Part shown: positions 12,817-13,028 of the stretch, one piece after another
How positions within the stretch are numbered: position 1 is the first letter of the stretch
Layout of the letters: each line of letters begins with the position of its first letter
Source: Escherichia coli
GTDB taxonomy: Bacteria > Pseudomonadota > Gammaproteobacteria > Enterobacterales > Enterobacteriaceae
DNA length: 64,000 bases
Assembly (NCBI RefSeq): GCF_003334815.1
Contig: NZ_QOWO01000003.1
Strand: one strand, 5' to 3'
Notes under the pieces: model-generated
What the model was told of the DNA's origin: nothing
Databases searched by the model: none
What the model saw: the letters and a program-made list of their open reading frames with translations, nothing else
Program-made: the position numbers and the translations under genes

Positions 12817-12862
12817 ACAATAGCTCTCTTTTTTTGAATATTGTTTTCTAAGTGACAATTAG

Positions 12863-12906
12863 CTTGCGACGTGCCGCAAGAAAGATCAACCATCTGGTTG
12901 GTTGAT
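12863..12906. promoter_or_regulatory. Two adjacent dyad symmetries in the divergent control region (candidate TetR operator/promoter elements for the catabolic operon)
   Basis: CTTGCG-N6-CGCAAG at 12863..12880 and ATCAACCA-N6-TGGTTGAT at 12885..12906, read directly from the sequence, immediately upstream of the first operon gene. Confidence 0.3.
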
Positions 12907-12992
12907 ATGCGATAGTGATCACAGGACATTTGATAACTTGATGAAAGTACAAGTTTTTATCCTTTTTACTGGAGCTTCTAATTAATCGGGTT

Positions 12993-13006
12993 AAGATAGT
13001 TATCTT
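12993..13006. promoter_or_regulatory. Dyad symmetry AAGATA-gt-TATCTT about 25 bp upstream of the TetR-family gene start (candidate autoregulatory site)
   Basis: Inverted repeat read directly from the sequence; position is consistent with an operator overlapping the regulator promoter. Confidence 0.3.
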
Positions 13007-13028
13007 GAAGAGGTCGTGGGGAAGCGTT

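What the first reader, a model, noticed from the sequence alone, without database searches (positions are those of the whole stretch)
12859..13028. Divergent control region with three dyad symmetries: candidate TetR operators
The 170-bp region between the first operon gene and the TetR gene contains CTTGCG-N6-CGCAAG (12863..12880), ATCAACCA-N6-TGGTTGAT (12885..12906, with a nested AACCA-tc-TGGTT) and AAGATA-gt-TATCTT (12993..13006). TetR-family repressors typically bind palindromes of this size overlapping divergent promoters, so these are testable operator candidates that could identify the inducing ligand.
Basis: seen in the sequence. Interest (0 to 1): 0.45.

Follow-up and report, generated by a model that had tools for sequence, protein, structure and literature searches.

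The report
One TetR operator beside CRP site
Of the three palindromes in this E. coli control region, only the middle one behaves like a real repressor binding site; it sits on the -35 element of a CRP-dependent promoter for an uncharacterised catabolic operon, which is an ordinary regulatory design.

Summary
All three dyads are in the sequence at the stated coordinates. Only dyad 2 (ATCAACCA-N6-TGGTTGAT, 12885-12906, with nested CAACCA-tc-TGGTTG, 12887-12900) survives comparison.

- **Dyad 2 is conserved.** It is the most conserved block of the 212-bp intergenic region in 15-16 orthologous TetR/operon loci (regulator 56-100% identical). It lies at a fixed distance from the operon.
- **The motif follows the regulator.** The same motif (consensus ATCAACCA-nn-TGGTTGAT) flanks distant alphaproteobacterial homologues of the regulator that have different neighbouring genes.
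- **Dyads 1 and 3 are not conserved.** They are lost even in other E. coli alleles and share no half-site with dyad 2. Each overlaps a probable -10 element.
TGCGAtagtgaTCACA (12908-12923) is a published CRP ChIP-seq target in ETEC H10407.

Inferred architecture of the operon promoter (minus strand):
- -35 TTGATC, inside the operator's left arm
- 17-bp spacer
- weak -10 CAAGCT
- transcription start near 12854
- CRP at about -61.5
- operator at about -31 to -52

The regulator's own promoter is about 110 bp away and is not covered by the operator.

Binding, transcription start and inducer are untested.

The parts
12887..12900 (.). Core operator CAACCA-tc-TGGTTG (6+6, 2-bp spacer). It matches the subfamily-wide motif CAACCA-NN-TGGTTG with 0 mismatches.
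   Evidence: it is the only 0-mismatch site in the 64-kb window. There is one site with 0-1 mismatches per orthologous locus (16 loci, 145 kb), always at this position; 28 sites with 0-1 mismatches occur in 19 alphaproteobacterial loci, all flanking the homologous TetR gene.
12885..12906 (.). It equals the 18-bp consensus ATCAACCA-nn-TGGTTGAT with an extra GGTT in the right arm, giving a second symmetry axis 2 bp from the first.
   Evidence: Mean column identity is 0.91, against 0.64 for the intergenic region outside 12884-12923. It is the only run of 10-nt windows with at least 0.85 identity.
12908..12923 (.). CRP-cAMP binding site TGCGAtagtgaTCACA (9/10 to TGTGA-N6-TCACA), centre 12915.5.
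   Evidence: pattern match; 8-10/10 in all 15 orthologues; published CRP ChIP-seq peak in ETEC H10407 with MEME site TGTGATCACTATCGCA, the exact reverse complement, between ETEC_4557 and ytfA (PMC4287617).
12884..12889 (-). Inferred -35 hexamer TTGATC of the operon promoter, overlapping the operator's left arm.
   Evidence: TTGATC in 14 of 15 orthologues (TTGTTC in one), with an exactly 17-bp spacer to the inferred -10 in all 15. This is inference; no transcription start has been mapped.
12861..12866 (-). Inferred weak -10 hexamer CAAGCT of the operon promoter (CATCTT, CATTTT, CATCGT, CATGTT or TAAGTT in orthologues). It predicts a start near 12853-12856, which places CRP at about -61.5.
   Evidence: the A at -11 and T at -7 are present in all 15 orthologues, and the invariant TGC at 12865-12867 is the conserved core. 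This is inference.
12863..12880 (.). Dyad 1, CTTGCG-N6-CGCAAG. It is specific to the window-type allele (and its 97% relative), lies in the inferred -35/-10 spacer and the start of the -10, and is not an operator candidate.
   Evidence: 6/6 pairs only in the window-type allele, and 0-4/6 in the other 14 sequences.
12935..12955 (.).
   Evidence: 0-5/6 pairs in orthologues.
12992..12997 (+). Inferred -10 hexamer of the TetR gene promoter: TAAGAT here; TATGAT, TATAGT or TATAAT in orthologues, some preceded by TGn.
   Evidence: TA...T is invariant in 15 orthologues and scores 5-6/6 outside the window allele. This is inference.
12993..13006 (.). Dyad 3, AAGATA-gt-TATCTT. Its left arm is the TetR -10 element. 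Its right arm is not conserved, and it is not an operator candidate.
   Evidence: left arm identity 0.83, right arm 0.52; pairs kept are 0-5/6.
13029..13676 (+). TetR/AcrR-family regulator, 215 aa. It is the full-length form of ytfA, which is a pseudogene in K-12.
   Evidence: TetR_N 3e-14; TetR_C_29 4e-30; the DNA-binding domain is 91% conserved against 69% for the rest; called ytfA in the literature.
3893..12816 (-). Target operon, in transcription order: SDR (12025-12816), TIM-barrel sugar isomerase-like (11173-12015), enoyl-CoA hydratase (10387-11169), CoA-transferase (8836-10377), FrdA/NadB-like flavoprotein (6758-8839), TRAP DctQ (6261-6761), DctM (4917-6218), DctP (3893-4864).
   Evidence: synteny of TetR divergent from SDR-TIM-ECH-CoA-transferase in every orthologue.

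Best explanation
The region is the control region of a repressor-controlled, CRP-activated catabolic operon.

**Operon promoter (minus strand; inferred from conserved positions, not mapped).**
- -35 TTGATC, 12889->12884
- 17-bp spacer
- weak -10 CAAGCT, 12866->12861
- transcription start about 12853-12856

**CRP.** CRP-cAMP binds TGCGAtagtgaTCACA (12908-12923; shown in vivo in a strain with the identical site). That places it at about -61.5, a class I activator position.

**Repressor.** The divergently encoded TetR-family protein (YtfA-type, 13029-13676) binds as a dimer, possibly two dimers, to the palindrome ATCAACCA-tc-TGGTTG(GTTGAT) at 12885-12906.
- The site spans about -31 to -52.
- It covers the -35 hexamer and the DNA between -35 and CRP.
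- Bound repressor should therefore exclude RNA polymerase (sigma region 4 and alpha-CTD) and possibly CRP.
- An unidentified pathway metabolite is expected to release the repressor.

**Regulator's own promoter.** The regulator gene has its own promoter (-10 TAAGAT, 12992-12997) about 110 bp from the operator, so autoregulation through this site is unlikely.

**Dyads 1 and 3.** They are allele-specific symmetries that happen to overlap the two -10 regions, not operators.

**Basis of each step.**
- Shown: the sequence features, their conservation, the link between motif and regulator subfamily, and CRP occupancy (published).
- Inferred: physical TetR binding, the promoter hexamers and start, repression, and induction.
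For: 1. **Footprint.** In a 15-sequence alignment of orthologous intergenic regions (mean identity 58%), invariant columns cluster at 12884-12903, 12908-12921, 12865-12867 and 12992-12997.
   - Dyad 2 has mean column identity 0.91, against 0.64 for the intergenic region outside 12884-12923.
   - It is the only stretch with 10-nt windows of at least 0.85 identity.
2. **Position.** The motif lies 66-73 bp from the SDR start in all 16 loci, but 126-356 bp from the TetR start.
3. **The motif follows the regulator.**
   - Alphaproteobacterial homologues (33-41% identical) have no operon gene in common and sit next to SsuA-like ABC transporter genes.
   - They carry 28 sites within 1 mismatch of CAACCA-NN-TGGTTG in 125 kb, against about 0.3 expected (my own estimate). 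All lie just upstream or downstream of the TetR gene.
   - Their consensus is ATCAACCA-nn-TGGTTGAT.
4. **Recognition region.** The DNA-binding domain is 91-94% conserved among orthologues, against 69% for the ligand domain. This fits an invariant half-site.
5. **Site number.** There is one site per locus and per genome: the only perfect match in the window, and once in each of 3143 E. coli genomes.
6. **CRP.** The site scores 9/10 here and 8-10/10 in all orthologues. A published ChIP-seq peak has the exact sequence.
7. **Promoter geometry.** -35 TTGATC, a 17-bp spacer without any indel, and -10 with A(-11)/T(-7) occur in all 15 orthologues.
8. **Regulator family.** TetR family membership is confirmed.
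Against: - There is no binding, footprint, reporter or transcription start data for this locus in the searched literature.
- The inferred -10 is poor (2/6 in E. coli, 3/6 elsewhere). The consensus promoter scan found nothing, so the start and the -61.5 and -41.5 positions are model-dependent.
- Conservation of the left arm is partly explained by the -35 hexamer itself.
- The register is ambiguous: two dyad axes lie 2 bp apart (12893.5 and 12895.5).
- The motif shares geometry and the ACCA/TGGT core with the RutR box (9/14), so cross-binding by RutR is not excluded.
- The closest solved TetR structure (3npi, E = 2e-16) is uncharacterised, so there is no experimentally defined operator to compare with.
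Confidence: 0.75

Rival explanations
1. All three dyads are operators of the TetR regulator and together control both divergent promoters.
For: All three dyads exist. Dyads are over-represented in this allele: 5 against 0.49 expected. Dyads 1 and 3 overlap the inferred -10 regions of the two promoters.
Against: - The three half-sites are unrelated (CTTGCG, ATCAACCA, AAGATA), and one TetR dimer recognises one half-site.
- Dyads 1 and 3 are lost in other E. coli alleles that encode 86-91%-type versions of the same locus, and in every other genus.
- Neither resembles the subfamily motif.
Confidence: 0.04
2. The conserved palindrome is bound by a different protein, or is conserved purely as promoter DNA, and the neighbouring TetR regulator acts elsewhere. 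One candidate is RutR, whose box TTGACCAnnTGGTCAA has the same geometry.
For: - It matches the RutR consensus at 9/14, including the critical positions 4 and 13.
- The left arm coincides with the inferred -35.
- There are no direct binding data.
Against: - The CAACCA/TGGTTG version of the half-site, rather than GACCA/TGGTC, is kept in all orthologues.
- It recurs next to distant homologues of this regulator in alphaproteobacteria with unrelated neighbours.
- The right half, GTTGGTT (12897-12903), is invariant and is not explained by any core promoter element.
Confidence: 0.1
3. The operator works mainly as an anti-activation site. Because it abuts the CRP site (2-bp gap or 2-bp overlap, centres 20-22 bp apart), the repressor displaces CRP or contacts it in a CytR-like way, rather than simply blocking the -35.
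For: The operator-CRP spacing varies by at most 1 bp across all orthologues. The operator lies between CRP and the -35.
Against: The operator also overlaps the inferred -35 directly, so steric exclusion of polymerase suffices. Alphaproteobacterial sites of the same subfamily were not examined for any CRP-type site, and no CRP motif was noted beside them.
Confidence: 0.1
4. Dyad 2 acts as an RNA hairpin (terminator or attenuator) on the minus strand.
For: The terminator scan lists it (8-bp stem, loop 6). The RNA fold gives -12 kcal/mol, z = -2.8.
Against: - The T-run is poor (CTTTCTTGCG) and only 3 of 8 pairs are G-C.
- It lies in the 212-bp intergenic region upstream of the operon, about 750 bp past the stop of ytfB, the nearest upstream gene on that strand.
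- It lies upstream of the inferred start.
- Both arms are conserved in sequence with no compensatory changes.
- There is no Rfam match.
Confidence: 0.01

Closest known systems
RutR (E. coli TetR-family regulator) and its RutR box 5'-TTGACCAnnTGGTCAA-3' (PMC2475637)
   Same: - Both regulators belong to the TetR family.
- Both operators are palindromes of about 7-bp half-sites separated by 2 bp.
- The inner core, ACCA-nn-TGGT, is identical.
- RutR is among the sequence hits to the N-terminal domain (E about 8e-8 over residues 9-92).
   Different: - The outer half-site bases differ (TCAACCA against TTGACCA).
- The overall match is 9/14.
- The C-terminal domains differ (TetR_C_29 here).
- RutR is a multi-target regulator with many intragenic sites, whereas this one shows one site per genome.
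- The enterobacterial element carries an extra GGTT that creates a second register.
Classical local TetR-family repressor with a divergent target operon (TetR/tetO, AcrR/acrAB type)
   Same: Both have a divergent regulator gene, a single palindromic operator in the intergenic region overlapping a core promoter element, and an expected ligand-induced release.
   Different: In TetR/tetA the operators overlap both divergent promoters and the repressor is autoregulated (established knowledge). Here the operator is about 110 bp from the regulator's own inferred promoter, and that distance is not conserved. The target is a catabolic operon rather than an efflux pump.
Class I CRP-dependent catabolic promoters with a specific repressor (lac type: CRP at -61.5 plus a local repressor)
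   Same: Both have a CRP site centred about -61.5 upstream of a weak sigma-70 promoter, and combine catabolite control with substrate-specific repression.
   Different: At lac the main operator is downstream of the start (+11; established knowledge). Here the operator lies between CRP and the -35 (about -31 to -52), closer to the CytR arrangement. The position rests on an inferred start.
KstR2 (TetR repressor of CoA-dependent steroid ring catabolism), the name some sources give the Salmonella orthologue
   Same: It is a TetR-family regulator adjacent to CoA-transferase, enoyl-CoA hydratase and dehydrogenase genes. An acyl-CoA inducer is plausible by analogy.
   Different: Similarity is weak (E about 1.6e-5 to KstR2 structures 4w1u and 4w97). 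There is no steroid pathway context. The naming is an annotation transfer, not evidence.

Membership tests
TetR-family repressor/operator system | The regulator has an N-terminal TetR-type HTH domain plus an all-helical C-terminal ligand domain. | tested here: met
   TetR_N 3e-14 (residues 19-61) and TetR_C_29 4.4e-30 (residues 83-201); 97 TetR-family PDB hits.
TetR-family repressor/operator system | The regulator gene is adjacent (typically divergent) to the regulated genes, and the arrangement is conserved. | tested here: met
   (L031), 58: TetR is divergent from SDR-TIM-ECH-CoA-transferase in E. coli, Salmonella, Klebsiella, Lelliottia, Leminorella, Entomohabitans and five metagenomic loci with different outer flanks.
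TetR-family repressor/operator system | A palindromic operator about 14-30 bp long lies in the control region and co-occurs with the regulator. | tested here: met
   (orthologues). (distant homologues with other neighbours carry the same motif).
TetR-family repressor/operator system | The regulator physically binds the operator and represses transcription. | not testable with these tools
   No EMSA, footprint or expression data were found.
TetR-family repressor/operator system | A small-molecule ligand releases the repressor. | not testable with these tools
   The ligand is unknown. The only leads are the hexuronate-type TRAP binding protein and the CoA-dependent enzymes.
TetR-family repressor/operator system | Autoregulation through an operator overlapping the regulator's own promoter (common but not universal). 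| tested here: not met
   the operator is about 95-110 bp from the inferred TetR -10, and the distance varies from 126 to 356 bp among orthologues. No second site lies near the TetR promoter in the window.
Class I CRP-dependent promoter | A DNA site matches the CRP consensus TGTGA-N6-TCACA. | tested here: met
   (9/10). (8-10/10 in 15 orthologues).
Class I CRP-dependent promoter | CRP occupies the site in vivo. | tested here: met
   Published ChIP-seq in ETEC H10407 (PMC4287617, Table 1), read. The reported site sequence is identical to the window's. This evidence comes from the literature, not from a computation here.
Class I CRP-dependent promoter | The site is centred near -61.5 (or -71.5, -82.5, -92.5) relative to a mapped start, and transcription depends on CRP. 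| tested here: inconclusive
   The -61.5 position follows from a conserved but weak inferred -10. No start has been mapped and no crp-dependence data exist.
RutR regulon site | A match to TTGACCAnnTGGTCAA at the level of validated targets. | tested here: inconclusive
   The match is 9/14, at the bottom of the range of ChIP-chip targets (7-13/14). The locus is absent from K-12, where RutR binding was mapped.

The most novel reading that the evidence does not exclude
The element may not be a simple one-dimer operator. A 4-bp doubling (GGTT) of the right half-site, kept in all Enterobacterales orthologues and in Belnapia, gives two registers 2 bp apart. This could let the repressor switch register or bind as two dimers, and so act as a CRP anti-activator at a promoter where it abuts the CRP site.

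The regulated operon pairs a hexuronate-type TRAP transporter (or an MFS transporter in the CFT073-type allele) with a CoA-transferase, hydratase, SDR and fumarate-reductase-like flavoprotein. It could encode an undescribed CoA-dependent sugar-acid pathway whose intermediate is the inducer.
Probability: 0.15. Interest if true: 0.55.

Novelty: new member of a known kind. Interest (0 to 1): 0.3.

Why it matters
- **A precise, testable operator.** The work gives an operator (CAACCA-nn-TGGTTG within 12885-12906) and a promoter model for YtfA. This TetR-family regulator is intact in about 58% of complete E. coli genomes and is a pseudogene in K-12. Its target operon (c5298-c5303 in CFT073) is still uncharacterised.
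- **A route to the inducer.** The operator makes the search straightforward, using a reporter or an EMSA release screen.
- **A transferable motif.** The subfamily-wide motif allows regulon prediction for homologues in alphaproteobacteria.
- **Fewer constructs to test.** Two of the three proposed operators can be dropped from experimental work.

The regulatory logic itself (local repressor plus CRP) is textbook.

Tried and rejected
- **Consensus promoter scan.** It found no promoter, because its thresholds are too strict for a CRP-dependent promoter. I replaced it with footprint-based inference.
- **Terminator or hairpin reading of dyad 2.** Rejected. The element is not downstream of a gene, the T-run is poor, and sequence rather than structure is conserved.
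- **Rfam scan of 12700-13150.** Only a sub-threshold viral hit appeared; there is no RNA element.
- **Operon homologues next to alphaproteobacterial TetR homologues.** None were found within 3 kb, so these are not orthologous loci. They turned out to be useful as independent carriers of the motif.
- **Closest solved TetR.** This is 3npi, which is uncharacterised, so no operator could be transferred.
- **NCBIfam.** There is no equivalog for the regulator. The operon enzymes have only generic names.
- **Literature searches** (ytfA, c5296-c5304, ETEC_4557/8, and a combination of TRAP, CoA-transferase, ECH and TetR terms). These returned:
  - the CRP ChIP-seq entry;
  - a 2010 synteny survey that labels the operon '3-ketoacid metabolism';
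  - a Tn-seq listing and a CRISPRi note on the K-12 pseudogene.
  None reports operator or function data.
- **Class II CRP geometry.** A start near 12874 was considered and rejected, because no -10-like hexamer lies at 12881-12886 (ATCTTT).
- **A shared role for the CRP site at the TetR promoter.** Rejected, because the distance (about 88.5 bp) is out of phase and is not conserved.

Full report
**Context**

The window is an E. coli chromosome segment: ulaEF, rpsF-priB-rpsR-rplI, then an island, then ytfB-fklB-cycA-ytfE.

The island holds a minus-strand operon of eight genes:

| Gene product | Coordinates |
|---|---|
| SDR | 12025-12816 |
| TIM-barrel 'sugar phosphate isomerase/epimerase' | 11173-12015 |
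| enoyl-CoA hydratase | 10387-11169 |
| CoA-transferase | 8836-10377 |
| FrdA/NadB-like flavoprotein | 6758-8839 |
| TRAP DctQ | 6261-6761 |
| TRAP DctM | 4917-6218 |
| TRAP DctP | 3893-4864 |

A divergent TetR/AcrR regulator lies at 13029-13676. This regulator is the full-length form of ytfA, which is a pseudogene in K-12. K-12-type genomes keep only the part from about 13117 onward (H20).

The island region is present in 3142 of 5426 complete E. coli genomes. Identity to the window falls in bands of at least 99% (1441 genomes), 95-99% (108), 90-95% (1156) and 80-90% (437). RefSeq starts the SDR at ATG 12816, so the true intergenic region is 12817-13028 (212 bp, 37% G+C).

**Observation check**

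- A dyad scan finds five dyads with arms of at least 6 and spacer of at most 10, against 0.49 +/- 0.71 in 5000 dinucleotide shuffles (P = 0.0004).
- Two of the five are the overlapping pair in dyad 2.
- A single 6-bp-arm dyad is expected about once in every two such regions. An 8-bp-arm dyad occurs in 3.5% of shuffles.

The single-sequence statistics do not decide the matter, so comparison is needed.

**Comparison within E. coli**

I aligned the window with alleles of 97, 91, 90 and 86% identity.

- Both arms of dyad 2 are invariant. One spacer base changes (G12896 to A).
- The right arm of dyad 1 (CGCAAG) becomes GGATAA, TGATAA or AGGTAA.
- The right arm of dyad 3 (TATCTT) becomes CACCAC or CATCAC.

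About half of the island-bearing E. coli genomes therefore lack dyads 1 and 3.

**Comparison across genera**

I fetched orthologous loci from these sources:

- Salmonella
- Klebsiella spallanzanii
- Lelliottia
- Leminorella
- Entomohabitans
- E. albertii
- E. whittamii
- five metagenomic or unassigned contigs with regulators 56-67% identical

Every locus keeps TetR divergent from SDR-TIM-ECH-CoA-transferase, even where the outer flanks differ.

In the 15-sequence intergenic alignment (mean identity 58%), the invariant and near-invariant columns fall in four clusters:

- GATCAACCA..T.GTTGGTT (12884-12903)
- TG.GA......TCA (12908-12921)
- TGC (12865-12867)
- TA(T)..T (12992-12997)

Further measurements:

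- Dyad 2 has mean column identity 0.91, against 0.64 for the intergenic region outside 12884-12923. It is the only place where 10-nt windows reach 0.85.
- Across the other 14 sequences, dyad 1 keeps 0-4 of 6 pairs and dyad 3 keeps 0-5 of 6. Dyad 2 keeps 5-8 of 8 pairs across all 15.
- The motif lies 66-73 bp from the SDR start codon in all loci, but 126-356 bp from the TetR start codon. The largest value is in Entomohabitans, which has an insertion of about 210 bp.

**The motif follows the regulator**

A genome-wide search also returned alphaproteobacterial homologues that are 33-41% identical to the regulator.

- They have no homologue of any operon gene within 3 kb.
- They sit next to SsuA/NitT-type ABC transporter genes instead.
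- In these 19 loci (125 kb) there are 28 sites within one mismatch of CAACCA-NN-TGGTTG. About 0.3 would be expected by chance (my own estimate).
- Every site lies just upstream or just downstream of the TetR gene.
- Their consensus is ATCAACCA-nn-TGGTTGAT.

The enterobacterial element, ATCAACCA-tc-TGGTTG-GTTGAT, is this 18-mer with an extra GGTT in the right arm. Belnapia shows the same doubling.

Other points that fit:

- Among orthologues the DNA-binding domain is 91% conserved (94% for residues 30-56), against 69% for the rest of the protein.
- The window holds one perfect site. The only one-mismatch site (38485) is inside a gene.
- Each of 3143 E. coli genomes holds the 34-mer once.

I take this as strong, though indirect, evidence that dyad 2 is the operator of the neighbouring regulator.

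**CRP site**

Directly to the right of the operator is TGCGAtagtgaTCACA (12908-12923).

- It matches the CRP core consensus at 9/10 here and at 8-10/10 in all orthologues.
- Haycocks et al. 2015 (PMC4287617, Table 1) list a CRP ChIP-seq peak in ETEC H10407 at 4940903. Its MEME site is TGTGATCACTATCGCA, between ETEC_4557 and ETEC_4558 ('ETEC-specific/ytfA'). That is the exact reverse complement of the window sequence.
- The other CRP-consensus match in the window (2147-2162) is their yjfY/rpsF peak. The spacing between the two agrees: 10754 bp in H10407 against 10761 bp here.

CRP occupancy is therefore already published.

**Promoter model (inferred)**

Reading the minus strand, all 15 orthologues share these features:

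- TTGATC (TTGTTC in one) at 12889->12884
- a 17-bp spacer with no indel
- a hexamer CAAGCT, CATCTT, CATTTT, CATCGT, CATGTT or TAAGTT at 12866->12861, which always keeps A at -11 and T at -7

What follows from this:

- The predicted start is at about 12853-12856.
- The CRP centre (12915.5) then falls at about -61.5, the canonical class I position.
- The operator spans about -31 to -52. It includes half of the -35 hexamer and the DNA between -35 and CRP.
- Dyad 1 falls in the -35/-10 spacer and the first bases of the -10. Its conserved left part is the 'GCA' of the -10 region.

For the regulator gene, the invariant TA...T at 12992-12997 is the likely -10. It reads TAAGAT here and TATGAT, TATAGT or TATAAT elsewhere, in some cases preceded by TGn. 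The left arm of dyad 3 is this hexamer, and the T-to-A change particular to the window allele is what completes the dyad.

No -35 could be assigned for the regulator promoter. The simple consensus scan found no promoter at all. That is consistent with weak, activator-dependent promoters, but it also means the starts are unproven.

**Mechanism**

The most likely reading is a standard catabolic switch.

- CRP-cAMP activates a weak promoter from -61.5.
- The YtfA-type repressor, bound over and upstream of the -35, blocks RNA polymerase and possibly CRP.
- A pathway metabolite releases the repressor.
- Autoregulation through this site is not supported.

The inducer cannot be named. The leads are as follows:

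- The TRAP binding protein's closest solved relatives bind D-glucuronate or D-galacturonate.
- The enzymes are CoA-dependent.
- The TIM-barrel protein resembles the uncharacterised SMc04130.
- The CFT073-type allele carries an MFS transporter in place of the TRAP system.

**Comparison with known systems**

- **RutR box.** In geometry and inner core the operator resembles TTGACCAnnTGGTCAA (PMC2475637) but matches only 9/14. Cross-binding by RutR is a minor rival.
- **Solved structures.** The closest solved TetR structure (3npi) is uncharacterised.
- **KstR2.** The 'KstR2' label on some Salmonella orthologues is an annotation transfer at E about 1e-5.
- **Literature.** I found no paper describing this operator or the function of the operon. 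A 2010 synteny survey lists c5298-c5303 as putative '3-ketoacid metabolism'.

**Verdict**

One of the three dyads is a well-supported operator candidate. The other two are allele-specific symmetries lying over -10 elements. The region also contains a documented CRP site.

This is a new member of a known kind and of modest interest. Its main value is a precise experimental target for de-orphaning YtfA and its operon.

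Noticed in passing
window 3893-6761 compared with L063 2517-3794 (CFT073): The transporter module of the operon differs between E. coli alleles. The window type ends in a TRAP system (DctQ, DctM, DctP). The CFT073 type (c5298-c5303) has a single MFS transporter after the same five enzyme genes.
   Followed up: partly
window 13029-13150: K-12-type genomes match the window only from about 13117 onward (H20). The K-12 'ytfA' pseudogene is therefore the 3' remnant of this regulator, left by a deletion that removed the operon, operator, CRP site and the first ~88 nt of the gene.
   Followed up: partly
window 3893-4864 (DctP) and 6758-12816 (enzymes): The closest solved relatives of the TRAP binding protein bind D-glucuronate or D-galacturonate (4N8Y, 4X8R, 4N91, 4MHF). 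The operon enzymes, however, are a CoA-transferase, an enoyl-CoA hydratase, an SDR, an FrdA/NadB-like flavoprotein with no PDB relative at E<=1e-10, and a TIM barrel like the uncharacterised SMc04130 (3ju2). The pathway is unknown and the combination is unusual.
   Followed up: partly
window 2147-2162: TGTGATGAACTTCAAA, between yjfY and rpsF, is the other CRP-consensus match in the window. It corresponds to a published CRP ChIP-seq peak in H10407 (4930149).
   Followed up: yes
It is not conserved in orthologues. Even without the operator pair, this allele has three 6-bp-arm dyads against about 0.5 expected.
   Followed up: yes
window 12884-12887 and 12917-12920: Two GATC (Dam) sites are present, one at the edge of the operator and inferred -35, the other in the CRP spacer. 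The first is kept in nearly all enterobacterial orthologues (GATCAACCA). Any effect of methylation was not examined.
   Followed up: no
L061 3794-4000: The most divergent orthologue (regulator 56% identical) has two operator copies upstream of the SDR gene: AACCAACC-attc-GGTTGGTT and ATCAACCgatcggTTGGTTGAT. It also has an AACCAAC half-site just after the TetR -10.
   Followed up: partly
L008 3577-4000 and L013 (Entomohabitans): The intergenic region is 424 bp instead of about 210. An insertion of roughly 210 bp, G+C-rich and with an 80-aa ORF call, separates the CRP/operator block from the TetR promoter.
   Followed up: no
L014-L033, positions about 2850-2930 and 3610-3790 (4070 in L019): Alphaproteobacterial homologues of the regulator usually carry two operators, one upstream and one just downstream of the TetR gene (11 of 19 loci have both). 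They neighbour SsuA/NitT-type ABC transporter genes, so the subfamily controls different functions in different lineages.
   Followed up: partly
window 13660-13676: The 3' ends of the regulator gene and of convergent ytfB overlap by 17 bp.
   Followed up: no
proteins P0063 and P0067: Some database versions of the regulator are frameshifted within the DNA-binding domain. They may be pseudogenes in some strains.
   Followed up: no
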